The position numbers and the translations under genes were made by a program. The notes beneath the pieces are model-generated. The model was not told the DNA's origin. It was given only the letters and a program-made list of their open reading frames with translations, and ran no database searches. 20,995 nucleotides of DNA, taken from Nitrososphaerota archaeon (lineage in GTDB: Archaea; Thermoproteota; Nitrososphaeria; Nitrososphaerales; UBA57). The stretch covers positions 1 through 20,995 of the forward strand of contig PAVW01000008.1 in the NCBI GenBank assembly GCA_002713205.1, written 5' to 3'. Below, one piece after another: positions 2,490 to 20,330 of this stretch (the first letter of the stretch is position 1; each line of letters begins with the position of its first letter).

Positions 2490-2598
2490 AGGATTTAACG
2501 ATGATGTGTTTTGTTTAAAATCTTAGTCTCTCACTATGCATTACCTGAAATTAGAAGTTTTAGGACACTAATATTTGAACAAGTTTTACCATTTTTGA
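2490..2598 (+). repeat. Left arm of a ~109-bp inverted repeat (21-nt leader plus codons 1-29 of the 2511 gene); partner at 19045-19153
   Basis: Perfect blocks are shared with the partner: ttacctgaaattagaagttttagg (2541-2564 = revcomp of 19079-19102) and aacaagttttaccatttttga (2578-2598 = revcomp of 19045-19065). Confidence 0.85.
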
Positions 2599-3791
2599 AA
2601 GACCGTGATGTTGAAGTTGAATGGTTTATCTATATGCCTGATAGGATTAAACCTCGTTTACAGAAAAATGAGAAATACAAAGTATTAGATTTTTATGATT
2701 ATGAAAATGCTGTGGATCTAATACGTGATGTTAAACCTGATATAATTTATGCTGCAGCATATCCAATCGCACCAGATATAGCCATTAGGTTAGCTGGCAA
2801 ACACTTCAAAATACCTGTAGTTGCTGATGTGGTTTCTCAGGCTGTATCAGAAGATAGATTAAGAAAAATGATACGAACAAATATTTCTGGGTTCTTTCAA
2901 AATTCAGTTTCAACAGATACTAACGAAAATGAAAAACAATTCATGAGAAGAGGAAAGTTTTGGATTAACAAATATCTTTTTTTGTTAAGAACACAACTTG
3001 TTGTAAAAATGAGTCTATTAAAAATTATTGAAGATTTTTTTAGATTTTTTTTAGCCCATGCGAAGTGGAAAAATCTGAACGACCCAAAATTTGCTGTAGA
3101 CTATCATTTTGTTGAAGGTAATTTATTATTTAACAGTTTAATTAAAAGTGGATACAATAAATCAAGTCTGATTTTAACGGGAAACCCTGTATATGATAAA
3201 GTATTTCAAAATTTATCACATATTTCACCATCTACAAAAAATAGTAAGATCCGAGTTTTGTTACTTACTCATAGCATGTACGAACATGGATTATGGACTC
3301 GAAAACAACGTGATGATCTAGTTAAAGTGTTGGTAACTGAAATTTCTAAACACAAAGACGAAATGTCATTGGTTGTAAAAATTCATCCTTCCAGTGAAAT
3401 CCTTTCAGATTATGAAAAATTAATTCATCCTATTGATTCATCAATACCAATTTATCAAAAGGAGGATATCCAAGAATTTCTTAATAATTCTGATGTTGTA
3501 TTAGCATATTCCGCTTCTTCTGGACCCATTCAAGCACTAATTCTAAAAAAACCAATAATCATAATTAATCTAAATCTTGCTGGAGATATAATGTTAGAAA
3601 GAAAAATCGTGACTGAATGTACTGATCCATCCAAAATTGTTTCATCTATTCACCAAGCTATTTCTTCAAATCCTGCAACAGAGAGAAAAATAAATGAGTT
3701 TGTTGAAGATTATATTTTTAAGGCTGATGGACTTGCCTATGAAAGAGTGGGAAAGGCTATAATTGAAATTATTAAGAAATCTAAACATTAG
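2511..3791 (+). CDS. GT-B-like transferase with K-x-HP motif (TagB/TagF-like or CMP-ulosonic-acid transferase-like); candidate NulO transferase
   Basis: 426-aa ORF with a TTG start at 2511; the ATGATG at 2501 is in another frame and stops after 5 codons. LILTGNPVYD and VVKIHPSSE resemble the xTGxPxxD and K-x-HP signatures of glycerophosphotransferases and of bacterial sialyl-/polysialyl-/Kdo-transferases. There is a central amphipathic segment FWINKYLFLLRTQLVVKMSLLKIIEDFFRFFL. The functional call is contextual. Confidence 0.6.
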   Translation: MFKILVSHYALPEIRSFRTLIFEQVLPFLKDRDVEVEWFIYMPDRIKPRLQKNEKYKVLDFYDYENAVDLIRDVKPDIIYAAAYPIAPDIAIRLAGKHFKIPVVADVVSQAVSEDRLRKMIRTNISGFFQNSVSTDTNENEKQFMRRGKFWINKYLFLLRTQLVVKMSLLKIIEDFFRFFLAHAKWKNLNDPKFAVDYHFVEGNLLFNSLIKSGYNKSSLILTGNPVYDKVFQNLSHISPSTKNSKIRVLLLTHSMYEHGLWTRKQRDDLVKVLVTEISKHKDEMSLVVKIHPSSEILSDYEKLIHPIDSSIPIYQKEDIQEFLNNSDVVLAYSASSGPIQALILKKPIIIINLNLAGDIMLERKIVTECTDPSKIVSSIHQAISSNPATERKINEFVEDYIFKADGLAYERVGKAIIEIIKKSKH

Positions 3792-3801
3792 AATTCAGAA
3801 A

Positions 3802-4446
3802 TTAATCTAAAATACTTCTAATTAGTTGAAAAGACTCTGCTCTTTGCAACCCTGATTCTATGCCTCTTTGAACAGACAGATTTTCAATAGATTCAATAGA
3901 TCTAGAATGTGGAAATTCTGTTATTTCGGATTTATACATTCTAAAAGCTCTAATTTTATATGAAAACTCATTTTTTATGTTCTCATAAACTGTTGGTTGA
4001 AAGGGTGTTTTTACTAATCCAGGTAACTCATAACAAAAAACTTGTTTTACATTACTTGATAATGGTCTTGTAGCAACTAAAGTTGATTCAAAAACTAATT
4101 GATGATCCTTGTTTAAATCATTGTGAGGAGTCGTATAGACAATCTGAGAATTATATTTTTGTATTATTTTCTCTAATTCAATGTTGATTTCAAGATGAGG
4201 TACAGAATCTAGTTTCATATCAGAAAATTCTAAAAAGTTGAATGTAGAAATTCCAAGTAGTTTTCCTGCTTTCAGACATGATTTCTTTCTAACTTCTATC
4301 ATCTTGTTATCTTCATACTGTGCAGTTGTACCTTCTGAAACAACACAAAGATCTATTTTGTGATTTTTTTTAGATAATTTTCGTATGGTAGCACCCATTC
4401 CAAGTACTTCATCATCAGGATGCGCTGCGATTACTAAAATATTCAT
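3802..4446 (-). CDS. PIG-L / LmbE family N-acetyl-sugar deacetylase
   Basis: 214 aa. N-terminal ILVIAAHPDDEVLGMG (AHPDDE zinc motif) and downstream TPHNDLNKDHQLV (H-x-D ... DH) are family hallmarks. It is the last gene of a co-directional minus-strand run. Confidence 0.85.
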   Translation of the reverse strand: MNILVIAAHPDDEVLGMGATIRKLSKKNHKIDLCVVSEGTTAQYEDNKMIEVRKKSCLKAGKLLGISTFNFLEFSDMKLDSVPHLEINIELEKIIQKYNSQIVYTTPHNDLNKDHQLVFESTLVATRPLSSNVKQVFCYELPGLVKTPFQPTVYENIKNEFSYKIRAFRMYKSEITEFPHSRSIESIENLSVQRGIESGLQRAESFQLIRSILD

Positions 4447-4464
4447 ATATACTCACAAGTTCAC

Positions 4465-4475
4465 AAATTAAAAAC
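4465..4475 (-). promoter_or_regulatory. TATA-like box upstream of the PIG-L deacetylase gene
   Basis: The minus strand reads gtttttaattt, centred about 24 nt upstream of the ATG at 4446, inside the 68-nt gap after the carbamoyltransferase stop. Confidence 0.3.
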
Positions 4476-4514
4476 TATTTTGGTTTAAACCTTAATTTCA
4501 TATTATTAACACAA

Positions 4515-6230
4515 TTATTTTATTACTAGTTGATTTCCTAAAATTAAATATTCTAAACCACTATTGAAAAATGTGTTTAGTGCATCATTAGGAGACATTA
4601 CTATAGGTTCACCGTTGATATTAAATGATGTATTTAGAACAATTGGAAAACCAGTTAACTTCTCCATTTCTATAAGTATATTATAAAAATTCTTATTATC
4701 TTGTATGTTAACAGTATGCACTCTTGCTGAACCATCAACATGTGTAATAGATGGTAGTTTACTTCTAAATTCTGATTTTACTGGAACTACTTTTTCCATA
4801 TACTTACATTGAAATTTTTCTGGCACATCAAAAAATTTACTTGCTTTTTCCTCAATAATTGATGGAGCAAAAGGTCTGTAACTTTCTCTATATTTGATGA
4901 TTGCATTAATTTTATTTTTCATTTCTGGTATTCGTGGATCAGCTAAAATTGATCTATTTCCTAGTGCTCTTTCTCCAAACTCCATTCTTCCATCAAAACG
5001 GGCTACTATTTTTCCTTCACTAAGAAGTTTAGCTGTAGTTAATGACACATTTTCTAGTTTTTCAGATTTTATTTTACGTCTATCAAGTGCATCAGTTATC
5101 TCATTTTCTGTGTATTCCTTACCCAAATAACTGCTAGTGGACGAATAATCTCGTTTTTCTCCATGAACGCAATGAGAAACATAAAGTGCTGAGCCAATAC
5201 TATTGCCAGCGTCTGTAGGGTCAAAAGATATGTAGAGATTTTTAAATTGAGTCTTATCTAAAATCTTTCCATTCAAAACTGAATTCATAAAAAAACCTCC
5301 ACTGAGAGCAAGGTTTTCATTGTTTGTTTTTTTATAGAGAGTTTCAATCATATGTAGTGCAATTTCTTCTGAAACAGTTTGCATAGCTTTTGCAACTGAA
5401 AAATACCATTCATCAGGTTCTTCTCCTTTTATCCCCTCTCTCCCACCTAGTAAATTTACAAGTTTATCTGTGTATAACTTGGGTTTATCTAAAATGACTC
5501 CTTGATAATATGACTGATCTAATTCAAACAATCCATCTGATGTTAATTTAATAGTTTTACGAATTTTTTCTAGATGTTCTGTGCAATCTACATCAAAAGC
5601 TGATAAGGCCATTACCTTCCATTCATCATATCCATCTCTATAACCCAATAGTTGAGTGTATGTGGCATAAAACATTCCAAGTGAATGTGGTAGTTCTTTT
5701 GTTGAAAATATCTCAATCTCGTTTTCTTTACCAATTCCTAAACTCGTAGTTTGAAATTCTCCTCTCCAATCACATGTTAATATTGCAGCTTCCTTAAACG
5801 GAGACAAAAAAAATGCATTAGCTGCATGAGCTAAATGATGTCTAACGAAATAAATTGGTGGCATTTTATTTTTTTCTGACTGTTGCATCAAAACCCATTC
5901 TGGTGGTGACCTATCTACAAAATTATACAAATTATCAGCTACTGTATAAAAATAATCTTCTCTTTTTGTACGATAAGTGGAAAATAATGGGTTGTATTTT
6001 TGCCAATTTTCACCAGGGTTCCATCCCTGTGCGATATAATCACAATCTTCTAATTTTTTATCTATGAAATCCAAACAAAATTTTACAGCATTTTGAGGAA
6101 ATAATTTTGTTTTTTTATTTCTAGTAATTCGTTCTTCAGGTGTTCCACATACTATTTTTCCATCTATTGATATGGACGCAGTTGAATTTATTTCCCCATG
6201 ATTAAGACCTAGAACTATCAAAACTTTCAA
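4515..6230 (-). CDS. Carbamoyltransferase, NodU/CmcH/TobZ family
   Basis: 571 aa with a TTG start. Hallmark blocks are KVLIVLGLNHGEINSTASISIDGKIVCGTPEERITRNK, VRHHLAHAANAFFLSPF, LALSGGFFMNSVLNG, ITHVDGSARVHTV and VLNTSFNINGEPIV (Carbam_trans_N plus Carbam_trans_C architecture). Confidence 0.9.
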   Translation of the reverse strand: MKVLIVLGLNHGEINSTASISIDGKIVCGTPEERITRNKKTKLFPQNAVKFCLDFIDKKLEDCDYIAQGWNPGENWQKYNPLFSTYRTKREDYFYTVADNLYNFVDRSPPEWVLMQQSEKNKMPPIYFVRHHLAHAANAFFLSPFKEAAILTCDWRGEFQTTSLGIGKENEIEIFSTKELPHSLGMFYATYTQLLGYRDGYDEWKVMALSAFDVDCTEHLEKIRKTIKLTSDGLFELDQSYYQGVILDKPKLYTDKLVNLLGGREGIKGEEPDEWYFSVAKAMQTVSEEIALHMIETLYKKTNNENLALSGGFFMNSVLNGKILDKTQFKNLYISFDPTDAGNSIGSALYVSHCVHGEKRDYSSTSSYLGKEYTENEITDALDRRKIKSEKLENVSLTTAKLLSEGKIVARFDGRMEFGERALGNRSILADPRIPEMKNKINAIIKYRESYRPFAPSIIEEKASKFFDVPEKFQCKYMEKVVPVKSEFRSKLPSITHVDGSARVHTVNIQDNKNFYNILIEMEKLTGFPIVLNTSFNINGEPIVMSPNDALNTFFNSGLEYLILGNQLVIK

Positions 6231-6250
6231 TTGTTTGATTTTTGATTCGC

Positions 6251-6258
6251 ATATAAGA
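6251..6258 (-). promoter_or_regulatory. TATA-like box upstream of the carbamoyltransferase gene
   Basis: The minus strand reads (t)cttatat, centred about 24 nt upstream of the TTG start at 6230, within the 40-nt gap after neuC. Confidence 0.3.
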
Positions 6259-6270
6259 ATTTTTATTTCT

Positions 6271-7416
6271 TTAATAGAACATTTTATTATTAATTAATTT
6301 ATTACTAAGACAAATATTTTCTAAAACTTTTACAATCTTCTCTGATGAGTTTCCTTGACCATAAATTTTTTCCTTCTTTTTCAACATCTTCATTTTAAAT
6401 GCTTTTTTAATTGCTGAAGTTACATCGTTAGTGGTATTTGCATCAATTCGAATGATATTTTTTCCTACTTCTCTATTATGCTGTCTAATTCCAATTTGTA
6501 TTATAGCTGTGTCAAAATAACTTCCTTCAATAATACCACTACTTGAATTTCCTATTAATAATCTACAATTTTTTAACATTCCAAGATAATCTGCTCTAGG
6601 AATTGTTGGATAATATTTGATGAAACTATATTTTTTTGAATATTTCTTCATATACGAAAAAATAATTTTGTTTCCAGCATCAGAGTTTGGAGCAATTACA
6701 ATGGTTGTTTTTTGTTCTTTAACGATTGCATCTAAAATATTTTTAATGTAAGACTCAGTTTTTTGAGAACCTGATGTAACAGGATGTTGTACAACTAAAA
6801 TTTCATTATTGGTAAACTTAATACCATATTTTTTTTCTAAAGTTTGTTTATCAGAAATTTTATTATTTGCTATTTCATCAATACCTGGCGAACCTGTTAA
6901 AAAAACAGTTTTTGGGTTCTCGCCCATTCTAATAATTCGGTTCTTACTTTTCTTTGTTGCAGGGAAATGTATATTAGAAATTTTAGTTATTGCATGCCTA
7001 TTATATTCATCAATACCTGCTCCAGTTATGTCGCCTCCGTGAATATGAGCATTAGGTATGTTCATATGATAAGCAGCTATACATGATGCAAGTACCTCAT
7101 CCCTATCACCTAATACCAAATTAATATCAGGTCTTAATTTTTTAAAAACTTTGGAAAATTGTAAAATTCCTTCTCCAACTGAAGAAGCCATGTGAAAACC
7201 AGAATCACCCTTAGGAACCATACCAATTTTTGAATAAATCTTAAAACCATCTTTTTTAATTTCGTTAACAGATAATCCATGTTTCTTTGAAAGATGCATT
7301 CCGGAAACAATTAGAAACAAATCTAATTTTCTATTTTTTAAGATCTTTTTTAAAACTGGTCGAATTAGCCCATATTCAGCCCTTGTACCTGTAGTAACAG
7401 AAATTTTTCTTTTCAT
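6271..7416 (-). CDS. neuC: UDP-(di)N-acetylhexosamine 2-epimerase, NDP-hydrolysing (NeuC/LegG-like)
   Basis: 381 aa. VTTGTRAEYGLIRPV, LVLGDRDEVLA, HIHGGDITGAGIDEYNRHAITKISNIHF and LIGNSSSGIIEG match the conserved blocks of the hydrolysing NeuC subfamily as I remember them (xRAEYG, GDRxE, HIHGGE, GNSSSG). Only a 2-nt gap separates it from the upstream formyltransferase stop. Confidence 0.85.
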   Translation of the reverse strand: MKRKISVTTGTRAEYGLIRPVLKKILKNRKLDLFLIVSGMHLSKKHGLSVNEIKKDGFKIYSKIGMVPKGDSGFHMASSVGEGILQFSKVFKKLRPDINLVLGDRDEVLASCIAAYHMNIPNAHIHGGDITGAGIDEYNRHAITKISNIHFPATKKSKNRIIRMGENPKTVFLTGSPGIDEIANNKISDKQTLEKKYGIKFTNNEILVVQHPVTSGSQKTESYIKNILDAIVKEQKTTIVIAPNSDAGNKIIFSYMKKYSKKYSFIKYYPTIPRADYLGMLKNCRLLIGNSSSGIIEGSYFDTAIIQIGIRQHNREVGKNIIRIDANTTNDVTSAIKKAFKMKMLKKKEKIYGQGNSSEKIVKVLENICLSNKLINNKMFY

Positions 7417-7418
7417 TT

Positions 7419-8339
7419 TTATCCTAAAATTGAATCCACATTATCTTTTGTAAATATTTTTGATATTGGAACTTCTTTGTTATCATTAAAACTAATTCTT
7501 TTTAAAATTATTACACCTTTACCAGTACCAATTTTCACATTAAAATTATTTACATGCATAATCTTGCCAATACCCTTACTTTGTTCATTAGAGAATTCTG
7601 CACCCCAAATTATTAATTTTGACCCATTAAAAATTGTGTACGCACCAGGATATGGATGAGTAGTAGCACGAATAAGTGTATGAATTTCTTGTGAATTTCT
7701 TGACCAGTCTATAATTCCATCTTGCGGTCCCCGTTTTTCCCAATTTTCTATAAAATTAGAAACATCTTGTTTTTTTCTTGTATAATTTCCATTTTGAAGT
7801 TTTGTTAGATTATCTTGTATCATTTCTTTTCCAACAGATTCAACTTTTTTATAAACTGATGTTGCATCATCATTTGAGCTCAATTTAAAAGATCTTTGAT
7901 CAAGAATATCACCATTATCAGTTCCCTCTTCAATGAAAAAAAATGTTAACGCACTTGTTTTCAATCCCTTTAAAATTGACCATGGAATGGGTGCCCGTCC
8001 ACGATATTTTGGTAATTCGGTAGGGTGAGAACCAATCACACCTATTTTAGGTATAGAAATAATTTCAGAATTTAATAACTGTGACCAACCCATAACTAGT
8101 ATTATGTCTGGTTCTATTTTTTTAATAATTTCAATATTGTTTTGAGCGTTAATTTTATCTACTTTAATATTTTGTAAATTATACTTTGAACAAAGTTCAT
8201 CTAAAGATATAAAATCACTAATTTTTTCCTTCTTAGAATCATCATAACTGAACACAACTGAAATGTTCCAATTATTCTCTAGAATAGTTTTGAGTATTTC
8301 ATAACTAAATTTAACTCCTCCAATGAAAATAATTTTCAT
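7419..8339 (-). CDS. Formyltransferase (Fmt/ArnA-N/sugar N-formyltransferase-like)
   Basis: 306 aa. MKIIFIGG, PDIILVMGWSQLL, GVIGSHPTELPKYRGRAPIPWSI (compare Fmt INVHGSLLPRWRGAAPI, from memory) and GTDNGDIL (compare LDTGDM), plus a C-terminal Fmt-like domain. Confidence 0.85.
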   Translation of the reverse strand: MKIIFIGGVKFSYEILKTILENNWNISVVFSYDDSKKEKISDFISLDELCSKYNLQNIKVDKINAQNNIEIIKKIEPDIILVMGWSQLLNSEIISIPKIGVIGSHPTELPKYRGRAPIPWSILKGLKTSALTFFFIEEGTDNGDILDQRSFKLSSNDDATSVYKKVESVGKEMIQDNLTKLQNGNYTRKKQDVSNFIENWEKRGPQDGIIDWSRNSQEIHTLIRATTHPYPGAYTIFNGSKLIIWGAEFSNEQSKGIGKIMHVNNFNVKIGTGKGVIILKRISFNDNKEVPISKIFTKDNVDSILG

Positions 8340-8359
8340 GTATATCTAATTAAAAATCC

Positions 8360-8369
8360 TTTAATTAAA
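8360..8369. promoter_or_regulatory. Perfectly palindromic TATA-like element (TTTAATTAAA) in a 54-bp divergent spacer
   Basis: It is centred about 26 nt from the formyltransferase ATG (8339, minus) and about 29 nt from the NeuB-like ATG (8394, plus). It is its own reverse complement. Confidence 0.4.
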
Positions 8370-8393
8370 ATGTGCAACTAACAATCATACGAT

Positions 8394-9083
8394 ATGGTCT
8401 TTATTGTTGCAGAAATTGGAGTGAACTGGGACGGGGATTTTGACTTAGTGAAACAAATGATGAATGAATCAAAACTACTTGGATTAAATGCTGTGAAATT
8501 TCAAGCATTTACATTTGAGATGGTAAAAAATCATCCTGAATCTAATAGACTAATGAATTCATCAATTACCAAAGAAAATATAGAAAAAATTAATGATATT
8601 TCTCAAGAAGTTGGAATTAACTGGTTTTGTACTCCAATGTATCCAGATGCTGTTAATTTTTTAGATAGATTTGTTTCTAGATACAAAATAAGAGAATTTG
8701 ATGGTCGTGAAATAATTCAATCAAATCAAACTGATTTATTTCAAACTATTTATAAAAAACATAAGAACATATTCATAAGTTCTGAAACAGTTCCAGTTAA
8801 TTGTTCATTTTATAATGATCCACAGATCAAATGGCTTTATTGTATTCCTAAATATCCATGCGGTCTTGACGATATCGATTTTTCTCTTTTAAAACATTTT
8901 GATGGTTTTTCAAATCATTGTAATTTAATTGAGGCACCAATTCGTGCATTACATGAGGGTATTGAAATCCTTGAAATCCATGTTACTTCTGATAAAACTA
9001 AAGATTTCGTTGATAATAACGTGAGTTTTGATTATGATGAAATTAAAGACATCATGAAAGTAGCAAAAGTTATCAATTCATAA
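8394..9083 (+). CDS. NeuB-family nonulosonic acid synthase-like protein, TIM-barrel only (no SAF domain)
   Basis: 229 aa. FIVAEIGVNWDGDFDLVKQMMNESKLLGLNAVKFQAF aligns to the NeuB N-terminal block EIGxNHxG...VKxQ. WFCTP, YKIREFD, WLYCIPKYP, GFSNHCN and LEIHVTSD align to FISTP, YKIGSGE, LLHCxxxYP, GLSDHT and LERHFT of N. meningitidis NeuB (from memory), so both metal-ligand His positions are retained. The ORF ends at 9083 and only 95 nt of non-coding DNA follow. Confidence 0.7.
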   Translation: MVFIVAEIGVNWDGDFDLVKQMMNESKLLGLNAVKFQAFTFEMVKNHPESNRLMNSSITKENIEKINDISQEVGINWFCTPMYPDAVNFLDRFVSRYKIREFDGREIIQSNQTDLFQTIYKKHKNIFISSETVPVNCSFYNDPQIKWLYCIPKYPCGLDDIDFSLLKHFDGFSNHCNLIEAPIRALHEGIEILEIHVTSDKTKDFVDNNVSFDYDEIKDIMKVAKVINS

Positions 9084-9148
9084 AATTTAGATGGAAAATG
9101 ATAAAATCTTCTAGAAACACTACAGTTGATTTGTGTTAATAAACTAGA

Positions 9149-9160
9149 AATTATATATAT
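9149..9160 (+). promoter_or_regulatory. TATA-like box upstream of aminotransferase 1
   Basis: aattatatatat is preceded by a purine-rich agaaa (BRE-like) and lies 19-30 nt upstream of ATG 9179, consistent with a leaderless or very short-leader archaeal transcript. Confidence 0.45.
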
Positions 9161-9178
9161 TGAAAGAGAGATAATGAT

Positions 9179-10312
9179 ATGAAAAATTGGAAAATACCTT
9201 TATACAAAATCTATACAGATGACGAGGATGTAAATTTAATCACAAAGGTAATCAAAAGGGGCTCTTCTTGGGCATTAGGACCAGAAATTGAAGAATTTGA
9301 AAACGCAATTAAAAACTATGTTGGTGTTGATTATTGTGCAACTCTAAATTCTGGTACTTCTGCATTACATGCAACTTATTTAGCATATGGAATCAAAGAT
9401 GGTGATGAAGTTATAATACCATCATTTTCATTTATTTCCACAGCAAACTCTGTTATGTTTGTAAATGCAAAACCAATTTTTGCAGATATTGAAGAAACAA
9501 CACTTGGATTAAATCCAGAACTACTTGAAGAAAAAATTTCAAGTTCCACGAAAGCAATAGTCCCTATGGATTATGGTGGTCTTTCATGTAATATTTTTGA
9601 AATTAATAATGTTGCTAAGAATAATAATATTTTATTGATTGAAGATGGTGCAGAGGCATTAGGTTCATCTGTACATGGGAAAAAAGTTGGCAGTGTTTCT
9701 GATTCGACAATATTTAGTTTCTGTGGTAATAAAGTACTAACTACTGGTGAGGGCGGTGCAGTAGTGACAAATTCTAAAGATATCTATGAAAAAATAAAAA
9801 TGGTTCGCTCACACGGCAGAATTAGTCAAATTGATTATTTTAATGACCCAAAAGGATCACAGTATATAGAACTTGGCTATAATTGGAGGATGTCTTCTTT
9901 AACTGCAGCTTTAGGAATATCACAACTTGGAAAACTTGATAAAATTATTAAAATGAGGAAAGAAAATGCAGAATATATCTCAGCCCGACTCTCAAAATTT
10001 ACACAAATTACACCTTTAACTCCCCCTGTTGGGTATGATCATATTTATCAAATGTACACAATTAAACTGCCAGATAGAAAAATCCGTAACTCTCTACATA
10101 ATTATCTTTTAGATAAGAGAATCTTCTCAAAAATCTATTTTGAACCAATTCATTTAACTGATTTTTATCGCCAAAAATTTGGCATAAAAGATGGTGCATT
10201 ACCAATCACAGAAAAAATATCTCAATGCATACTGACAATTCCTATTTATCCGAATATGACTATGGAAGAAAAAACATATCTTGTTGAATCAATTTCTGAT
10301 TTTTTTGAATAA
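9179..10312 (+). CDS. PLP-dependent sugar aminotransferase, DegT/DnrJ/EryC1/StrS family (PseC/LegC/PglE-like)
   Basis: 377 aa. GPEIEEFENAIKNYVGVDYCATLNSGTSALHA, IIPSFSFISTANSV, DGAEALGS, FSFCGNKVLTTGEGGAVVTN (PLP lysine) and WRMSSLTAALGISQL. Confidence 0.9.
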   Translation: MKNWKIPLYKIYTDDEDVNLITKVIKRGSSWALGPEIEEFENAIKNYVGVDYCATLNSGTSALHATYLAYGIKDGDEVIIPSFSFISTANSVMFVNAKPIFADIEETTLGLNPELLEEKISSSTKAIVPMDYGGLSCNIFEINNVAKNNNILLIEDGAEALGSSVHGKKVGSVSDSTIFSFCGNKVLTTGEGGAVVTNSKDIYEKIKMVRSHGRISQIDYFNDPKGSQYIELGYNWRMSSLTAALGISQLGKLDKIIKMRKENAEYISARLSKFTQITPLTPPVGYDHIYQMYTIKLPDRKIRNSLHNYLLDKRIFSKIYFEPIHLTDFYRQKFGIKDGALPITEKISQCILTIPIYPNMTMEEKTYLVESISDFFE

Positions 10313-10336
10313 AACTATAACACTGAAAATAATCTT

Positions 10337-11215
10337 CTACGATAAATAGTGTTTAATTACCCACATATCTGGAAATTCTTCTGCATTATCTCTTTCAACA
10401 TCTGAAATTAAGATTTCATCCATTTTTTCACCCTGTCTTAAGCCTACCACCTTATGTTTTTTAGATATTTTATTAGCTAGTTCTTTTATTTTGTATGACT
10501 TCATTTTTGGCACAAATATCTCTCCTTGATTTATGAGCGGTATACATTTTATAATAAAATCAACAGCTTCACCAATATGGAAAAAATATCTTTTCATGGA
10601 TAAATTGGTAATTGATAGAGGCAAATTATCTTTGAACTCCTTATCCCAAACTTCAAATACATTTCCTCTAGTTTCGATAACATTGCCAAATCGGACGCTG
10701 GCAAATTTAGTATGTTCAACATGCATTCCAGCCCAACTAGTTAATCTCTCACCCAACTGTTTTGTTGTTCCATAAAGTGTGGATGCGTCTGCTGCTTTAT
10801 CGGTACTTATGTTTAGAAATTTAATTGGTTTATTACGAATTATAGCCTTTATAATATTTACAATTCCATTTATGTTAACATCAATTGTTTCAATCGGATT
10901 AAATTCTGAAATCTCAATATTTTTTACAGCAGCGGCATGTATGATTATATCTACATTATCACATGCCATGTTGATTCTGTCTTTATCAGTAATACTTCCA
11001 AGCAGAAGTCTTAATCTTGGATCATTTACGTCACGCTTTAATTTAAATAGCCCATATTCATCAATATCTAAAACTCTTATAGCTTTAATTGGATATTCTA
11101 AAAGATGTTTTGCCAGGGCAGTTCCAATACTTCCAGCTCCTCCAGTCAACAAGATTGTTTTATTTTTTAATTCTTTTTTAATATCTGATAGATTACTAGT
11201 GTTTTTTTTACGCAT
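10337..11215 (-). CDS. NDP-GlcNAc 4,6-dehydratase, short soluble Polysacc_synt_2 type (PseB/FlaA1/PglF/CapD-like)
   Basis: 292 aa. KTILLTGGAGSIGTAL, DPRLRLLLGSITD, HAAAVKNIEISEFNPIETIDVNING, STDKAADASTLYGTTK, RFGNVIETRGNV, GEIFVPKMKSYKIKELA and GLRQGEKMDE align block by block with H. pylori FlaA1/PseB as I recall it. Retaining versus inverting (Leg versus Pse) stereochemistry cannot be judged by eye. Confidence 0.85.
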   Translation of the reverse strand: MRKKNTSNLSDIKKELKNKTILLTGGAGSIGTALAKHLLEYPIKAIRVLDIDEYGLFKLKRDVNDPRLRLLLGSITDKDRINMACDNVDIIIHAAAVKNIEISEFNPIETIDVNINGIVNIIKAIIRNKPIKFLNISTDKAADASTLYGTTKQLGERLTSWAGMHVEHTKFASVRFGNVIETRGNVFEVWDKEFKDNLPLSITNLSMKRYFFHIGEAVDFIIKCIPLINQGEIFVPKMKSYKIKELANKISKKHKVVGLRQGEKMDEILISDVERDNAEEFPDMWVIKHYLS

Positions 11216-11352
11216 TTATTGCATCTCCAAATAAATCATTTTTCTAACATTTGCTCTAAAATCTTGCATATTAATAATTTCGTCTTTTTTTATTTTATTA
11301 TGTTTTAATTTTAGTCATATAATGAATGAATGCAACATAACATAATTCAATA

Positions 11353-11362
11353 CTATTTATTA
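11353..11362 (+). promoter_or_regulatory. TATA-like box upstream of the oxidoreductase operon
   Basis: ctatttatta is centred about 28 nt upstream of ATG 11386, in a 170-bp divergent spacer. Confidence 0.3.
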
Positions 11363-11385
11363 CTAATAATTTGTGAGGTTTATCC

Positions 11386-12327
11386 ATGAAAAAATATAAT
11401 GTGATAGTGATTGGTTTAGGTTTAATCGGAATGAGGTATGGTATTGATCCAAAAAGAAAACAACCTGCAAGTCATATTGCTGCTATATTAGAAAATAAAA
11501 ATTTACAATTAATAGGAGTATGTGATACAGAGAAAAATGCAAGAGATCTTTTTACTGAAAAATATAAAAAAATACATGTTTTTGATAATTTTTCAGAACT
11601 TGCAAGTAAAATTAATCAGAAACAAATTGATTGTGATATTATAGTTATTTCTACTCCTGACTCAACTCATGTAGAGATTTTGAATTCTTTAGTTGAAAAT
11701 CTCAACCATATAGAAAAGTCTGTGATTATATTTTGCGAAAAACCATTAACACCAGATTTGTATACTGCCAAACAAGTAAAATCTCTCATAAAAAATCCTC
11801 ATATCAAAATTGTTGTAAACCATACTAGGAGATGGAGTGAGATTTGGAATGAAGCTCACATATTATCTAAAGACATTGGGCATATTAAAAAGGCAGCATT
11901 TTATTTTTCAACAACTGCTGAAAATAAAGAAATTAATCAAATTAGAGACGGTATTCATATTGCTGATTTAATGAATTGGTTTAATATTTTAGAAAAAACA
12001 ACGATAAACAGATTAGATATACCATATTTTATTTATGATTTCTATCTTTGGGGTTCAAAAGGAAAGATAGAAATTTTATCAAATGGCCAAATTCTAAATT
12101 TCTTTAAATCAAAGGAATCTTCTAAATATGAAGGATATCAAGATTTGGAATTAATTTGCACCAAAAAAGTTAACGAATCATTTTTTTCTAAAATCTATAA
12201 AGAATTTGTAGAATTTTTGGATGGAAGTATTTCTTCACTCTCTACCAATATTGACGATGCTATATCTGCATTATCTACTTTTGAGAAATATGTATTTGAT
12301 ATGGAGAAATCTAAAACTAGGGGATGA
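11386..12327 (+). CDS. Gfo/Idh/MocA family NAD(P)-dependent sugar oxidoreductase
   Basis: 313 aa. Rossmann motif VIVIGLGLIG, VISTPDSTHVEI and the FCEKPL (EKP) motif. An SD-like gtgaggt sits at 11373-11379, 6 nt before the ATG. Confidence 0.8.
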   Translation: MKKYNVIVIGLGLIGMRYGIDPKRKQPASHIAAILENKNLQLIGVCDTEKNARDLFTEKYKKIHVFDNFSELASKINQKQIDCDIIVISTPDSTHVEILNSLVENLNHIEKSVIIFCEKPLTPDLYTAKQVKSLIKNPHIKIVVNHTRRWSEIWNEAHILSKDIGHIKKAAFYFSTTAENKEINQIRDGIHIADLMNWFNILEKTTINRLDIPYFIYDFYLWGSKGKIEILSNGQILNFFKSKESSKYEGYQDLELICTKKVNESFFSKIYKEFVEFLDGSISSLSTNIDDAISALSTFEKYVFDMEKSKTRG

Positions 12328-12333
12328 AACATT

Positions 12334-13503
12334 TTGACTAAACGATTTAACGACAAGGAAATTGAAGCAGTAAAAAATGTCATAGAAAACGGCAAATATC
12401 TTTCAGGATTTACAACAAAGTTTAGAGGAGGTGAAGAGGTACAGAAATTTGAAAAGGAATTTGCTAAATACATTGGTGTGAAGTATGCACTATGTGTAAA
12501 CTCTGGGACATCTGCATTATTTATTGCATTCAAGACTGCTATTCAATATGGTAAAAAAACTAAAAATTCTAAATTAATAAAACCAAATATCCATCTTCCT
12601 GCATATACTTTTACTGCTGATCCAAGTGCTGCGCTTCAAGTGGGTGGTAAAATAGTTTTTGAAGATATTGATAAGAAATCATACTGTATGTTGAAGCCTA
12701 AAATACACACTCCGATATGTGTTCCAACACATTTGTTAGGAAATGCAATACAGCCATCAAATTTTGGAAAAACTGAATTTTTAATAGAAGACTGTTGTCA
12801 ATCTTTGGGAACTCGGGTTGGTCAAAGAATGGTGGGTAGTTTTGGAGCAATGAGCATATTTAGTTTTCAAGAAACAAAACATATTACAACACTTGGAGAA
12901 GGTGGAATGATATGTTCTGATAATGAAGAATTAATTGAGATTGCGGCTGCAATTAGAAATCATGGTGAATATTACCAACAAAAAAATTATTTTGGCGGTA
13001 ATTTTCGTATGACAGAAGCGCAAGCCGCATTTGGAAGAATACAACTAAAAAAAATCAATTCTATTCTGAAAATGTTTAGAACTAATGCTAAACAAATAAT
13101 AAAAAAACTTCCAAACGGTATTATTCCACCATACATAAACCATAAAGTAGAACACTCATTTTTAGTAATTGGTTGTTTATATGACAAAAAAATAATTGGT
13201 GTTGATAGAGAAATTTTCTTAAAAAAACTTACAGCAAACAGAAAGCATATTCTAGAAATGGATGAAAAATCAGATATAAAAGGTATTAATATGAAATCTG
13301 GGAAATTAATTTCTTCAGGTTATTCAATTCCTCTTTATAACGTTCCACTCTTCAAGAAATTTAAGCCTAAGAATGGTTGTAAAAATGTAGAAGACATAAT
13401 AAAAAAATCATTTTGGATGGACATTCACAAGTTTAGAACTAGTGAAGAAATATCTGAAGAAATTGATATTTTAAATGATACTATAACAAAATTTCAACAA
13501 TGA
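12334..13503 (+). CDS. Second DegT/DnrJ/EryC1-family sugar aminotransferase
   Basis: 389 aa with a TTG start 6 nt after the oxidoreductase stop. GEEVQKFEKEFAKYIGVKYALCVNSGTSALFIA, EDCCQSLG, FSFQETKHITTLGEGGMICS and FRMTEAQAAFGRIQL. Its stop overlaps the next start (ATGA at 13500-13503). Confidence 0.85.
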   Translation: MTKRFNDKEIEAVKNVIENGKYLSGFTTKFRGGEEVQKFEKEFAKYIGVKYALCVNSGTSALFIAFKTAIQYGKKTKNSKLIKPNIHLPAYTFTADPSAALQVGGKIVFEDIDKKSYCMLKPKIHTPICVPTHLLGNAIQPSNFGKTEFLIEDCCQSLGTRVGQRMVGSFGAMSIFSFQETKHITTLGEGGMICSDNEELIEIAAAIRNHGEYYQQKNYFGGNFRMTEAQAAFGRIQLKKINSILKMFRTNAKQIIKKLPNGIIPPYINHKVEHSFLVIGCLYDKKIIGVDREIFLKKLTANRKHILEMDEKSDIKGINMKSGKLISSGYSIPLYNVPLFKKFKPKNGCKNVEDIIKKSFWMDIHKFRTSEEISEEIDILNDTITKFQQ

Positions 13504-14210
13504 AAATTATATCTATAATAACTGCACGCTCTGGCTCTAAGGGGGTTCCCCACAAAAACATCCGAAATCTTGGTGGAATACCACTGTTAGGTTGGGGTGT
13601 GAAAGCAGCCAGTAAATCGAAGATGATTAACAAAATTATACTATCAACTGATTCAGAAGAATATTTCAAAATTGCAAATTCATTTAATGACGAAATAATT
13701 TTTCATAAACGAACTCCCGAGTTAGCAGAAGATGTTCCTTCCGAGTTGGTATTGTTAGATGTGATTAATAAATTCGATGAACTTTTTGATGATGATGCTA
13801 TTATTGTTTTAATACAACCAACTACACCGTTTGTATCACATATTGATATTGACACGTGTATTGAAAAATTAATAAAAAATCCACATGTGAATAGTTGTAT
13901 TACTGTAAAAGAAGTAACAGAACATCCTGAATGGGTAATAAATAAAAAAGAAAATTTTGATGATATTGGAGAATGTCTTGATCTATCTGGAAGTTTTTCC
14001 GTGAGGCAAAATCTGAAAAAAAGATGGATTGCTAATGGTGGTGCATATGCAATAAGAAAATCATTTTTTGAAAAAAATAAAAAAATAATAGATGAAAAAA
14101 ATACTCTTGTTCATGAAATGCCAAAAATAAAAAGTTTAGACATAGATGAAGAATATGATTTCATGTTATGTGAATTATTAGCAAATTCTGGATTAGTGAA
14201 TCCAGAATAA
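13500..14210 (+). CDS. neuA: CMP-nonulosonic acid synthetase (acylneuraminate cytidylyltransferase; NeuA/LegF/PseF-like)
   Basis: 236 aa. IISIITARSGSKGVPHKNIRNLGGIPLLGW carries the ARxGSKxxxxKN signature of CMP-sugar cytidylyltransferases; VLIQPTTPF is also present. It is translationally coupled to the preceding aminotransferase. Confidence 0.9.
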   Translation: MKIISIITARSGSKGVPHKNIRNLGGIPLLGWGVKAASKSKMINKIILSTDSEEYFKIANSFNDEIIFHKRTPELAEDVPSELVLLDVINKFDELFDDDAIIVLIQPTTPFVSHIDIDTCIEKLIKNPHVNSCITVKEVTEHPEWVINKKENFDDIGECLDLSGSFSVRQNLKKRWIANGGAYAIRKSFFEKNKKIIDEKNTLVHEMPKIKSLDIDEEYDFMLCELLANSGLVNPE

Positions 14211-14270: not shown

Positions 14271-14435
14271 ATGAAAAAAAAACTATTATGTGGTAATTAT
14301 GAACCAAAAGTTAATCCTGAAGTAGAAATCTCTGAACCAAAAAACGAACCTGAATTTGAAACAGAAGCACTCAAACATCTTGGTGGAAGCATAGCATTTG
14401 TGAGGGGTGATAAGTTCTATGAAGAAAATAACTGA
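14271..14435 (+). CDS. Hypothetical small acidic protein (54 aa), not in the supplied ORF track
   Basis: ATG at 14271 to TGA at 14433-14435 reads MKKKLLCGNYEPKVNPEVEISEPKNEPEFETEALKHLGGSIAFVRGDKFYEENN. A TATA-like box (cttatattaaag, 14232-14243) lies about 30 nt upstream, the same geometry as other genes here. The ORF overlaps the start of the DUF115 gene in another frame. There is no homology evidence, so it could be a chance ORF in the 196-nt spacer. Confidence 0.3.
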   Translation: MKKKLLCGNYEPKVNPEVEISEPKNEPEFETEALKHLGGSIAFVRGDKFYEENN

Positions 14436-15321
14436 TAATGAACTTCTTGATATTATAACCAAAAGTACATTAGAAATTCATGGTCCTATGTGGCTTGAGA
14501 ATATACAATATAATGAAAAAAAATATGGGTTCAACGATACATTAAATGGAATTAAAATAAAATCGTCTAAAACATTAGTAATTGCTGCAGGTCCTACTTT
14601 CAAGAAAGTTTTTGGAAAAAACTTTCAAGAGATTATGAAAAAAAGAAATGAAATAACCATTGTGGCATGTGATGGAGCATTATCAATGCTTACCGAGATT
14701 AACTGTATTCCGGACTATGTTGTTTCCGTAGATGGTGATCCAATAATTGCAAATTTTTATAAAAAATCTAAAAAAATTCTTCGAGGTGTAACTGTGATTC
14801 TAGCTACATCAATTAATCCAAATGTAGTCAAGGAATGTATTGATGCTGGTGCTAAAATAAAATGGGTTCAACCATTCTTCAGAAATAATTCTGAAGAAGA
14901 ATTCTTTAGAGATGGAATTACATCTATAAAGATGGGAGGAAATGTTGGAACTGCATCATACATTCTAACAGCATTTGCACTTAAAGGGAATCCAATTGGG
15001 TTAATGGGAATAGAATTTGCGTGGAGTGATGATACACCATATAGCGATACACAATATTATAACCAGCTTATGAAATCATTTGATAAAAACCAAGAAAAAG
15101 TTGAAGAACAATTTATTCATGTTAATAATCCAAGAAATGGTAATGTATACATTGCAGATCCAGTGTATTATGCGTATTTCTTAATGCTTAAAGAGATTTG
15201 GAGTGAACTTCCTTCAGAAATTAAGGATAATACCTATAATCTAACTAGTGAGGGGATACTAAATATTGCCGATTTAAAATATATACATATTAAAAAGTTC
15301 TTAGAATTAGAACAGAAATGA
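14419..15321 (+). CDS. MptE-like / DUF115 (Maf, MAF_flag10) domain protein; candidate CMP-NulO-dependent protein glycosyltransferase
   Basis: The ORF is open from 14404. The track uses GTG 14407; I prefer ATG 14419, which is preceded by an SD-like gaggggtga (14402-14410). The core KTLVIAAGPTFKK ... ITIVACDGALSMLTEINCIPDYVVSVDGDP fits the G-P-S/T ... D-x-A ... P-D-x-x-x-x-D signature of the DUF115 domain. Its stop overlaps the next gene's start. Confidence 0.75.
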   Translation: MKKITDNELLDIITKSTLEIHGPMWLENIQYNEKKYGFNDTLNGIKIKSSKTLVIAAGPTFKKVFGKNFQEIMKKRNEITIVACDGALSMLTEINCIPDYVVSVDGDPIIANFYKKSKKILRGVTVILATSINPNVVKECIDAGAKIKWVQPFFRNNSEEEFFRDGITSIKMGGNVGTASYILTAFALKGNPIGLMGIEFAWSDDTPYSDTQYYNQLMKSFDKNQEKVEEQFIHVNNPRNGNVYIADPVYYAYFLMLKEIWSELPSEIKDNTYNLTSEGILNIADLKYIHIKKFLELEQK

Positions 15322-18094: not shown

Positions 18095-19003
18095 TTATTT
18101 TTTTAATGCCTTCATATGAAGATAACCTTCATTGAATAAAATTTTAGCCAAATCTGATTCATAATTGTGATATAGCGGGCTCAAAAATTGTCTAATGTTG
18201 TTAAATTTTGGATATCTTGTTAATCTTTTAATATCTACAAATCCGTTATTTTCTAGCCAGTTTACAACATCATCTATTGGCGTTTCGTCATAAATCGGTG
18301 TTTGTATTCGATCTTTTATTGTTAAAATTAAATCATTATCAATCAATGATGTAATTGTATCTAAAGGAATTTTATTTATTATCGGTTCATCATGTTTTTC
18401 TAATTCAGTATATATCAAGTTAAGCGATTCCATAATTTTTTGTTCGGTTAAATTATCTATCAATGATTTAAAATTCAAATTTTTTGTATATTCATTTCTA
18501 AGCACTTTAGTTATTTGTGAAAAAAGTCCACCAGCTCCAAATATTGAAAAATATAATGTGCCCCCATGTTTTGTCACTCTCGATAATTCTGAAAGCCCAC
18601 CAAACAAATCTGTTGTACTATGCAAAACACCGTTACAATACACAAAATCAAAGAAATTATCTTCATATGGAATATCTAAAACACTTCCACTTTTTAATTC
18701 ATATTTTCCTTCAAATTTTTTCAAAAATTTTTGTGCTGTTTCTATAAATGATGGTTCAACATCTAAATCAAATGCATGAACTTTTTTTGCTCCCAAATTT
18801 ATTAACGCTCTGGTTCCGTTTACATTTGAACCACATCCTGCATCTAAACAAATTTTATCATTAAAGAATGATTCATCTACCTGAAAGAATTCATGAGAAA
18901 TCATTGAGGTTATTCTATCATATATGGATTCATCATTTCCTTGTTCACAATGAATTTCGTGATAAACTTCTCTTGTTCGTTTTTCGATTTCTTCAGAATC
19001 CAT
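18095..19003 (-). CDS. Class I SAM-dependent methyltransferase
   Basis: 302 aa. Motif I is ICLDAGCGSNVNGTRAL; post-I is KVHAFDLD; also FDFVYCNGVLHS and KHGGTLYFS. It is co-directional with, and 95 nt upstream of, the SPASM radical SAM gene. Confidence 0.85.
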   Translation of the reverse strand: MDSEEIEKRTREVYHEIHCEQGNDESIYDRITSMISHEFFQVDESFFNDKICLDAGCGSNVNGTRALINLGAKKVHAFDLDVEPSFIETAQKFLKKFEGKYELKSGSVLDIPYEDNFFDFVYCNGVLHSTTDLFGGLSELSRVTKHGGTLYFSIFGAGGLFSQITKVLRNEYTKNLNFKSLIDNLTEQKIMESLNLIYTELEKHDEPIINKIPLDTITSLIDNDLILTIKDRIQTPIYDETPIDDVVNWLENNGFVDIKRLTRYPKFNNIRQFLSPLYHNYESDLAKILFNEGYLHMKALKK

Positions 19004-19229: not shown

Positions 19230-20321
19230 ATGAAGCGTGCTCTAATAACAGGTATTACTGGCCAAGATGGGGCTTATCTAGCAGATTTATTATTAAAAAA
19301 GGGTTACAAAGTCTTTGGTACATTTAGACGAACATCAACGCCTAATTTTTGGAGATTGCAGAATCTAGGAATATATTCTCAAATAAAACTAATCCCTGCA
19401 GATTTACTTGACATGGGTTCTATGATAGAAGCAATCAAGGTTTCTGATGCTGATGAAATATATAATTTAGCGGCTTCTAGTTTTGTCGGTACATCATTTG
19501 AACAATCAGTTGGAAATGCTGAAATCACAGGTCTTGCTGTTACAAAACTTTTAGAAACAATAAGATTTCTTAATGAAGATATAAAATTTTACCAAGCATC
19601 AAGTAGTGAAATGTATGGTGATAACAAATTTATATTTCAAAATGAGAAAACACCATTTATGCCATCTAGCCCATATGGAATTGCAAAACTTTATGCTCAT
19701 TGGATTACTGATATTTACAAAAAATCGTACAACATGTTCGCTGTTAATGGAATATTATTTAACCATGAATCGCCTCTTCGTGGACTAGAATTTGTTTCAA
19801 GAAAAATTACTAATGGTGTAGCAGAAATTTTTCTGGATCGAAAAAAGGAATTGGTTTTAGGGAATCTACAGGCAAAGAGAGATTGGGGATATGCACCTGA
19901 GTATATGGAAGCCGTACATTCAATGCTTCAACAAGATAAGCCAGATACTTTTGTAATCAGTACTGGTGAAACACATAAAGTTCAAGATTTTGTCAAGTTA
20001 GCATTTGACCTGGTTGGATTAAACTGGAAAAAATATGTTAAAACTGATAAACGCTTCTTTCGTCCGTTAGAAGTTAATTATTTACGCGGAAATAACAAGA
20101 AAGCAAAAAGTAAACTGGGTTGGAAACCAAAAATAACTTTTGAAAAACTTGTAAAGATTATGCTAGATGAAGACATAAAAAGATGGAAAATGTTTTTGGA
20201 CGGCAAAACATTTCCTTGGGATGCACCTCTTTATCCTAGTGAATCAAAATTTATTACCAGACTTAGTGATGAAAATAAAAAAATGAAATTAACCCATTCA
20301 CACTCAAAAAAGAAAAAATAG
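19230..20321 (+). CDS. gmd: GDP-mannose 4,6-dehydratase
   Basis: 363 aa. KRALITGITGQDGAYLADLLLKKGYKVFGTFRRTSTPNFWRLQNL, YQASSSEMYG, SPYGIAKLYAHW (YxxxK), NGILFNHESPLRG and RDWGYAPEYMEA are near-canonical Gmd blocks. It has a Lys-rich C-terminal tail. Confidence 0.92.
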   Translation: MKRALITGITGQDGAYLADLLLKKGYKVFGTFRRTSTPNFWRLQNLGIYSQIKLIPADLLDMGSMIEAIKVSDADEIYNLAASSFVGTSFEQSVGNAEITGLAVTKLLETIRFLNEDIKFYQASSSEMYGDNKFIFQNEKTPFMPSSPYGIAKLYAHWITDIYKKSYNMFAVNGILFNHESPLRGLEFVSRKITNGVAEIFLDRKKELVLGNLQAKRDWGYAPEYMEAVHSMLQQDKPDTFVISTGETHKVQDFVKLAFDLVGLNWKKYVKTDKRFFRPLEVNYLRGNNKKAKSKLGWKPKITFEKLVKIMLDEDIKRWKMFLDGKTFPWDAPLYPSESKFITRLSDENKKMKLTHSHSKKKK

Positions 20322-20330
20322 GTTAATTTT

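What the first reader, a model, noticed from the sequence alone, without database searches (positions are those of the whole stretch)
3802..14210. Leg/Pse-type pathway without an N-acetyltransferase but with PIG-L deacetylase plus formyltransferase: predicted N-formyl NulO
Every core step is represented: 4,6-dehydratase (10337-11215), 4-aminotransferase (9179-10312 or 12334-13503), hydrolysing 2-epimerase (6271-7416), PEP-condensing synthase (8394-9083) and CMP activation (13500-14210). The NeuC-type epimerase, rather than a PseG-type hydrolase, points to the legionaminic-type branch. The dehydratase is PseB/PglF-like, so stereochemistry is open. No left-handed-beta-helix or GNAT acetyltransferase (LegH/PseH/PglD equivalent) is visible in any frame. 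Instead, one minus-strand gene run encodes formyltransferase, NeuC, carbamoyltransferase and PIG-L de-N-acetylase. A deacetylase plus a formyltransferase is what is needed to replace the GlcNAc-derived N-acetyl (future N5) with N-formyl. The formyltransferase could also acylate the new 4-amino group (future N7). N-formylated NulOs are known, for example 5-N-formyl-legionaminic acid on Halorubrum-associated glycoproteins and Pse5Ac7Fo in Pseudomonas O-antigens. As far as I know, the enzymology of the N-formyl swap is not established.
Basis: partly seen in the sequence, partly recalled or inferred. Interest (0 to 1): 0.6.

Follow-up and report, generated by a model that had tools for sequence, protein, structure and literature searches.

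The report
Formylated, carbamoylated archaeal sialic-like sugar cluster
A marine archaeon carries genes for a sialic-acid-like surface sugar that probably has one acetyl group swapped for formyl (a widespread, partly described module), and the usual acetyl-adding enzyme is replaced by a carbamoyl-adding one, which would give a sugar decoration I found in no paper.

Summary
PIG-L + formyltransferase + short NeuB + NeuC is a conserved thaumarchaeal module; the formyltransferase is not a tRNA-Met enzyme (AU p 0.009). It does not replace the acetyltransferase. In relatives the gene after NeuC is a 130-aa hexapeptide acyltransferase (22 of 36 loci) or a small second formyltransferase (9), never both. 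So the pair most likely swaps N5-acetyl for formyl, and the slot gene acylates N7. Here that slot holds a NodU/TobZ-type carbamoyltransferase whose clade lacks the catalytic His of O-carbamoyltransferases and travels with the window's SAM methyltransferase. This points to a 5-N-formyl, carbamoylated (possibly 7-ureido) NulO. A separate oxidoreductase-aminotransferase-CMP-synthetase cassette may add an 8-amino group. Precedents: Halorubrum 5-N-formyl-Leg and the Kuenenia deacetylase/formyltransferase cluster. The scan has already noted the swap pair and carbamoyltransferases in NulO loci on other DNA. Genome-wide absence of an acetyltransferase is unproven: the MAG is incomplete and mixed, and has a GNAT beside another NeuB. 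New variant, no biochemistry; interest 0.42.

The parts
2511..3791 (+). 426-aa GT-B-like protein, candidate NulO transferase (inferred)
   Evidence: weak Epimerase_2 match; recurs in 14 related NulO loci
3802..4446 (-). PIG-L/LmbE zinc de-N-acetylase, inferred to free the GlcNAc-derived amine (future N5)
   Evidence: PF02585; HPDDE at 9 and DH at 114, HPDDE in 67/67 homologues; present in 35 of 38 related loci of 8 kb or more
4515..6230 (-). NodU/TobZ-type carbamoyltransferase in the acyltransferase slot after NeuC; clade motif GLNHGE(I/F)NS lacks the general-base His
   Evidence: orthologue contexts
6271..7416 (-). NeuC/LegG hydrolysing UDP-sugar 2-epimerase
   Evidence: TIGR03568 above cutoff
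7419..8339 (-). two-domain sugar N-formyltransferase (G-S-H in place of N-x-H), 2 bp upstream of neuC
8394..9083 (+). SAF-less 229-aa NeuB-family synthase with most catalytic residues kept
9179..10312 (+). DegT aminotransferase 1, the likely 4-aminotransferase (PseC/LegC step)
   Evidence: PseC model 296 bits; 61-71% orthologues in most related loci, often beside the dehydratase
10337..11215 (-). soluble UDP-GlcNAc 4,6-dehydratase, nearest PseB/FlaA1; C5 inversion unknown
   Evidence: PseB 232, FnlA 146, LegB 44 bits; FlaA1 194 vs PglF 139 bits, TDK and YxxxK kept
11386..12327 (+). Gfo/Idh/MocA oxidoreductase, first gene of a coupled three-gene cassette
12334..13503 (+). DegT aminotransferase 2, found with this Gfo and this NeuA clade; candidate C8 aminase
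   Evidence: 65-71% orthologues in 4 other dereplicated loci; PLP lysine motif intact
13500..14210 (+). CMP-NulO synthetase of the cassette-specific clade
   Evidence: 58-62% to NeuA of cassette loci vs 27-36% in SDR loci
18095..19003 (-). 302-aa class I SAM methyltransferase, orthologue of the gene next to the carbamoyltransferase in a related locus
   Evidence: 75% identity to L124:11770-12669; 300-305-aa MTases flank the carbamoyltransferase

Best explanation
Surface-glycan island of a marine thaumarchaeon that makes a CMP-activated 5,7-diamino-NulO of the NeuC (Leg-like) type. Family-level assignments are shown by sequence; all substrates and positions are inferred. Route: UDP-GlcNAc 4,6-dehydration (10337), 4-amination (9179), capping of the new amine (future N7) by the gene in the slot after neuC, hydrolysis with 2-epimerisation (6271), PEP condensation (8394), CMP activation (13500). 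PIG-L (3802) removes the GlcNAc-derived acetyl and the large formyltransferase (7419) re-acylates that amine from N10-formyl-THF, giving N5-formyl (about 0.65). The slot gene here is a carbamoyltransferase (ATP + carbamoyl phosphate), so the sugar probably carries a carbamoyl group (about 0.6), on N7 as a ureido group (about 0.35) or on a hydroxyl. The linked methyltransferase may methylate that group or the amine. The Gfo-DegT2-NeuA cassette probably oxidises and aminates one more carbon, most likely C8 (about 0.3).
For: Module conserved in 71 dereplicated loci; PIG-L in 35/38 long loci. Hexapeptide (22) and small formyltransferase (9) exclude each other in 36 loci where the slot is visible (Fisher p 2e-5; kin not independent). 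The small formyltransferase is nearest WbkC, a 4-amino-4,6-dideoxysugar formyltransferase. Re-acetylating an amine just freed by PIG-L would be futile, so the slot is N7 and the large formyltransferase N5 (inference). The pair also occurs in PseG-type loci and with GNATs. Halorubrum PV6 has legG, a ~950-bp formyltransferase and a hexapeptide gene in a row and makes 5-N-formyl-Leg; its 302.1-Da step equals Leg5Fo7Ac (PMC6137143). Kuenenia has a deacetylase/formyltransferase cluster and formylated CMP-NulO (10.64898/2026.04.20.719630). Carbamoyltransferase orthologues (61-66%) sit in four NeuC loci with no hexapeptide in view, once directly after neuC. GdmN H27, the essential base for O-carbamoylation (PMC9633730), aligns to I14 here and is non-His in at least 118 of 121 rows. 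NodU-like enzymes can carbamoylate amines (PMC13174530).
Against: No biochemistry or glycan data. The formyltransferase lacks the catalytic Asn (Gly103 in nearly all 120 homologues), so formyl transfer is assumed. The closest carbamoyltransferase (85%) lies in a locus with no NulO core in view, and another lies with two GNATs. His11, conserved in 111/121, could stand in for the missing base. A GNAT beside a NeuB on contig C2 could act in trans. In Kuenenia one amine is free and one formylated, positions unassigned. The NeuB lacks the SAF domain whose Arg314 is essential in N. meningitidis (PMC8208679).
Confidence: 0.5

Rival explanations
1. N5-formyl NulO whose N7 stays free or is N-methylated by the 302-aa methyltransferase; the carbamoyltransferase O-carbamoylates a hydroxyl of the NulO or of another sugar in the island.
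For: All solved family members hit are O-carbamoyltransferases. In two loci the methyltransferase, not the carbamoyltransferase, follows neuC directly, and an unrelated methyltransferase fills the slot in 3 loci. Free-amine NulO exists in Kuenenia.
Against: General-base His position is Ile/Phe/Leu in the clade. L126 has neuC followed directly by the carbamoyltransferase and no such methyltransferase.
Confidence: 0.25
2. One reading: the formyltransferase replaces LegH and formylates N7; PIG-L leaves N5 as a free amine.
For: N7 formylation is established for PseJ (PMC11040635). Kuenenia's one-free-amine, one-formyl product fits this equally.
Against: The same formyltransferase clade coexists with a hexapeptide acyltransferase in 31 loci and with a second small formyltransferase in 10. 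Halorubrum's product is 5-N-formyl.
Confidence: 0.12
3. N7 is acetylated in trans by an unlinked acetyltransferase (e.g. the 147-aa GNAT beside NeuB on C2), giving ordinary Leg5Fo7Ac; the carbamoyltransferase serves another glycan.
For: GNAT at C2:12097-12540. C2 is C8's nearest contig in composition within the assembly. C. jejuni legH is also unlinked. The assembly is 76% complete.
Against: That GNAT sits in its own NulO locus with full-length NeuBs. No orthologue of the 130-aa hexapeptide is in the assembly. Loss of the hexapeptide gene coincides with the carbamoyltransferase in several loci.
Confidence: 0.13

Closest known systems
Halorubrum sp. PV6 5-N-formyl-legionaminic acid cluster (PMC6137143)
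   Same: Archaeal; NeuC-type epimerase adjacent to a ~310-aa formyltransferase; dehydratase, aminotransferase, NeuB, NeuA
   Different: PV6 has a LegB-assigned dehydratase and a hexapeptide gene after the formyltransferase; the paper names no deacetylase. The window has a SAF-less NeuB, a carbamoyltransferase and an extra Gfo/DegT cassette.
Ca. Kuenenia stuttgartiensis Leg-like cluster (SugarBase preprint 10.64898/2026.04.20.719630)
   Same: Deacetylase plus formyltransferase inside a Leg-type cluster; formylated CMP-NulO observed
   Different: Product has one free amine; no carbamoyltransferase mentioned; I could not compare protein sequences.
A. baumannii ElaABC C8-epimerisation cassette (PMC13656337)
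   Same: Gfo/Idh/MocA oxidase plus dedicated CMP synthetase; related thaumarchaeal loci carry Gfo + SDR + NeuA
   Different: The window has a PLP aminotransferase where the SDR would be; its Gfo is a different clade; homology to ElaA itself not tested.
TobZ/GdmN/VtdB/NovN O-carbamoyltransferases and StdF N-carbamoyltransferase
   Same: Two-domain Kae1-like/YrdC-like fold, TM-score 0.75-0.81; metal ligands H131/H135/D154/D340 invariant
   Different: General-base His (GdmN H27) replaced by Ile/Phe/Leu; context is a NulO pathway.
B. subtilis Sps legionaminic pathway (PMC7439481)
   Same: Soluble PseB/CapE-like dehydratase working without net C5 inversion on UDP-GlcNAc; shows a PseB-like hit need not mean Pse
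   Different: Uses SpsD and SpsG; no formyl or carbamoyl genes.

Membership tests
Legionaminic acid pathway | Hydrolysing 2-epimerase (NeuC/LegG) | tested here: met
   TIGR03568 409 bits, cutoff 236
Legionaminic acid pathway | Non-inverting 4,6-dehydratase (LegB/PglF type) | tested here: inconclusive
   LegB 44 bits, PseB 232 (below its 408 cutoff), FlaA1 best PDB hit; SpsM precedent for non-inversion
Legionaminic acid pathway | N-acetyltransferase LegH/PglD | tested here: not met
   none on C8; assembly incomplete
Legionaminic acid pathway | NeuB synthase with SAF domain | tested here: not met
   229-aa barrel only, but E7, K35, Q37, K98, S129, S173, H175, E194, H196, D207 conserved and fold matches NeuB
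Legionaminic acid pathway | D-glycero-D-galacto product | not testable with these tools
   needs NMR or HPLC standards
Pseudaminic acid pathway | PseG-type UDP-sugar hydrolase, no C2 epimerisation | tested here: not met
   NeuC present; PseG-like genes occur only in other loci with full-length NeuB
Methionyl-tRNA formyltransferase | Clade membership and N-x-H motif | tested here: not met
   separate 100/100 clades, joint clade rejected p-AU 0.009; motif is G-S-H
Sugar N-formyltransferases (ArnA, WbkC, PseJ) | Asn-His-Asp catalytic set | tested here: not met
   H105 and D141 invariant, Asn replaced by G103
PIG-L/LmbE deacetylases | HPDD and DH zinc motifs | tested here: met
NodU/CmcH carbamoyltransferases | Two-domain fold and metal ligands | tested here: met
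O-carbamoyltransferases (TobZ/GdmN type) | General-base His in loop 1 | tested here: not met
   I14 aligns to GdmN H27 by sequence; a conserved His11 lies three residues earlier, 3D position not inspected
ElaABC-like C8 modification cassette | Gfo oxidase + SDR reductase + CMP synthetase | tested here: not met
   no SDR; aminotransferase instead; 0 overlap between 13 SDR loci and 5 DegT2 loci

The most novel reading that the evidence does not exclude
The locus makes a CMP-5-N-formyl-7-N-(methyl)carbamoyl, possibly 8-amino, nonulosonic acid. This would define a ureido-forming sugar N-carbamoyltransferase subfamily (GLNHGE(I/F)NS motif) that is interchangeable with LegH-type acyltransferases, and would give the first gene candidates for 8-amino-NulO synthesis.
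Probability: 0.25. Interest if true: 0.68.

Novelty: new variant of a known kind. Interest (0 to 1): 0.42.

Why it matters
N-acyl groups on nonulosonic acids set surface charge and virus recognition (Halorubrum virus adsorption, PMC6137143), yet the enzymes for most N-substitutions are unknown (PMC11040635). The slot pattern assigns N5 and N7 roles to untested enzyme families and makes them testable with a few purified proteins. A carbamoylated NulO was not found in the papers searched. The module is common in marine Thaumarchaeota metagenomes, so the chemistry could be abundant in the ocean. The swap pair itself is widespread and already proposed, which limits the surprise.

Tried and rejected
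Formyltransferase as tRNA-Met enzyme: rejected. Hexapeptide genes elsewhere in the assembly as LegH: those read look like LpxA/LpxD on a bacterial-looking contig C10 and a gamma-carbonic-anhydrase-like protein on C5; C6 and C9 hits were not read; no orthologue of the 130-aa slot gene. The genome-contig scan gave only two distant loci. 400 order-level genomes held no close orthologue of the formyltransferase, and order- and phylum-level samples none of the carbamoyltransferase: not found in those searched. Viral contig scans were empty. Whole-contig search of L031, L124-L126 was not possible, so hexapeptide absence there holds only for about 10 kb each side. Aminotransferase 2 had no PDB hit labelled as Kdo8N transaminase at E 1e-20. 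NeuB as pseudogene: rejected, 963 homologues, the best 120 nearly all about 230 aa, pLDDT 96. A dehydratase tree with characterised PseB/PglF/LegB was not built for lack of reference sequences. Kuenenia and PV6 proteins could not be fetched.
Full report
Observation. The window is the first 21 kb of contig C8 (28.9 kb) of a 919-kb, 76% complete assembly. Formyltransferase, neuC, carbamoyltransferase and PIG-L run on the minus strand with gaps of 2, 40 and 68 bp; Gfo, aminotransferase 2 and neuA are coupled with gaps of 6 and -4 bp. No hexapeptide or GNAT family match lies on C8. A near-identical contig from another sample has the same gene order and shows none for a further 2.6 kb upstream of the window start.

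Host and limits. Named homologues are Nitrosopumilaceae/Thaumarchaeota. The assembly is mixed: C10 encodes LpxA/LpxD/BamA-like proteins. C8 and C2 resemble each other (r 0.90) and other thaumarchaeal NulO loci (up to 0.92) more than the core contigs (0.73-0.86; core to core 0.92-0.96). C8 is therefore either an acquired island or mis-binned. C2 holds a second NulO locus with three NeuB genes, a NeuC, a polysaccharide deacetylase, another formyltransferase and a GNAT next to a NeuB. Genome-wide absence of an acetyltransferase cannot be claimed.

The conserved module. I gathered loci by the formyltransferase, clustered their ORFs and dereplicated at 90% identity to 71 loci. PIG-L is present in 35 of 38 loci of 8 kb or more, NeuC in 30 and short NeuB in 25. 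The usual order is PIG-L, short neuB, formyltransferase, neuC, X. Of 36 loci where the region after neuC is visible, 22 have a 130-aa hexapeptide protein, 9 a 150-aa formyltransferase with intact N-x-H, 3 a methyltransferase, and 2 none of these (one is the window). Hexapeptide and small formyltransferase never co-occur (Fisher p 2e-5; relatives are not independent). The small enzyme's best PDB hit is a GDP-4-amino-4,6-dideoxymannose formyltransferase. I infer that slot X acylates the new 4-amine (N7). The large formyltransferase and PIG-L then act on the GlcNAc-derived amine (N5), since acetylating an amine just freed by a deacetylase would be futile. The pair also occurs in PseG-type loci, in Halosimplex with GNATs, in Halorussus, and beside a sugar transferase in Roseibium, so it is a general acetyl-to-formyl module.

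The formyltransferase. Sequence search cannot separate Fmt from ArnA (about 100-108 bits each), and databases call it methionyl-tRNA formyltransferase. In a tree, the thaumarchaeal clade and seven true Fmt proteins are separate 100/100 clades and a joint clade is rejected (p-AU 0.009). It groups, with weaker support (94/87), with haloarchaeal and alphaproteobacterial sugar-cluster enzymes that share G-x-H in place of N-x-H. His105 and Asp141 are invariant. The missing Asn is a caveat on activity.

Literature. Halorubrum PV6 has legG, a predicted formyltransferase (953-bp amplicon) and a NeuD-like gene in a row and carries 5-N-formyl-Leg (PMC6137143); the reported mass step of 302.1 equals a Leg5Fo7Ac residue. 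A 2026 preprint links a deacetylase and formyltransferase in a Kuenenia Leg-like cluster to CMP-NulO with one formyl and one free amine. N7 formylation by PseJ is known. I found no enzymology of the N5 swap.

The carbamoyltransferase. It has the TobZ/GdmN fold (TM 0.75-0.81) and invariant metal ligands. GdmN H27 is the base that deprotonates the acceptor hydroxyl, and H27N is inactive (PMC9633730). GdmN D28 aligns to N15 here, so H27 corresponds to I14, which is Ile, Phe, Leu, Val or Thr in 118 of 121 rows. An amine acceptor would need that base less (inference), and a NodU-like enzyme that carbamoylates lysine is known (PMC13174530). His11 is conserved and might substitute. Of six homologue contexts read, three (61-66%) are PIG-L/neuB/formyltransferase/neuC loci with no hexapeptide in view, each with a 300-aa methyltransferase adjacent; one has neuC directly followed by the carbamoyltransferase; one is a NulO locus with GNATs; the closest (85%) shows no NulO core. 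The window's methyltransferase at 18095-19003 is 75% identical to the one beside the carbamoyltransferase in L124. Locus L106 has both a hexapeptide and a carbamoyltransferase, but the latter is a 36% canonical His-Asp type. No paper linking a carbamoyl group to a NulO turned up.

Backbone. The dehydratase is nearest PseB/FlaA1 but below the equivalog cutoff. B. subtilis SpsM shows that such enzymes can feed legionaminic acid (PMC7439481). If it does invert C5, NeuC would give the acinetaminic-type (5-epi-Pse) backbone (inference from known stereochemistry). The NeuB is a complete barrel (pLDDT 96; best match the 290-aa Leptospira synthase 6NCS, TM 0.86), keeps most catalytic and metal residues, and has an invariant Arg100 that may replace SAF Arg314 (inference). 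SAF-less NeuBs are known from environmental bacteria (PMC8208679).

Second aminotransferase. Aminotransferase 9179-10312 has 61-71% orthologues in most loci and is the 4-aminase. Aminotransferase 12334-13503 occurs with this Gfo (47-55%) and a distinct NeuA clade (58-62%) in four other loci. Thirteen loci have an SDR instead (twelve with another Gfo), the make-up of ElaABC, proposed to epimerise C8 through an 8-keto intermediate (PMC13656337); none of them has aminotransferase 2. This suggests C8 amination. A 5,7,8-triamino NulO exists in Flexibacter maritimus (PMC3210612). The numbers are small and C3 amination of another sugar remains possible.

Verdict. The missing acetyltransferase is better explained by the carbamoyltransferase than by the formyltransferase. 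Earlier scan notes reported the swap pair and NulO-linked carbamoyltransferases on other DNA; I treat them as leads only. New variant of a known kind; interest 0.42.

Noticed in passing
G000 contig C2 (L021:1-16517): Second NulO locus: B12 radical SAM, polysaccharide deacetylase next to a 269-aa formyltransferase, three NeuB (one short, 50% to the window's), NeuC, three cytidylyltransferases, GNAT, class III aminotransferase, SDR.
   Followed up: partly
G000 contigs C10, C8, C2: C10 encodes bacterial-type LpxA/LpxD/BamA/Dxr genes; C8 and C2 differ in tetranucleotide profile from the core contigs, so the MAG looks mixed.
   Followed up: partly
window 14271-16916: 54-aa ORF, MptE-like/DUF115 protein and B12 radical SAM in tandem; a similar trio recurs in many related NulO loci.
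   Followed up: no
L096:3022-5540, L098:10913-13434: NeuC is replaced by a divergent 301-aa epimerase-like protein followed by a 521-aa protein with a metallo-beta-lactamase-like HxHxDH motif (resemblance to CMP-Neu5Ac hydroxylase is from memory, untested).
   Followed up: no
L129 (Halorussus caseinilyticus plasmid NZ_CP119810.1): Cultured haloarchaeon with neuC, PIG-L, neuB, large and small formyltransferases, Gfo, SDR, NeuA and PseB-like dehydratase: a tractable model for the module.
   Followed up: partly
L024:7047-9961 (G000 C11): 316-aa SAF-less NeuB next to a 655-aa cytidylyltransferase fused to a domain that looks like lactate racemase LarA (from memory, untested); a second PIG-L lies nearby.
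   Followed up: no
L032:12643-14565: A 260-aa dehydrogenase-like gene common after the module carries an intein with a LAGLIDADG domain in this locus (640 aa).
   Followed up: no
L065, L071, L083, L097, L113: PseG-type variants of the module (full-length NeuB, PseG-like, same 130-aa hexapeptide); the two where a dehydratase is visible use a different NAD-epimerase family than the PseB-like one.
   Followed up: partly
window 19230-20995 and L001: Downstream GDP-mannose dehydratase, C-methyltransferase-like gene and CDP-glucose (RfbF/RfbG-like) genes: further sugar pathways in the same island.
   Followed up: no
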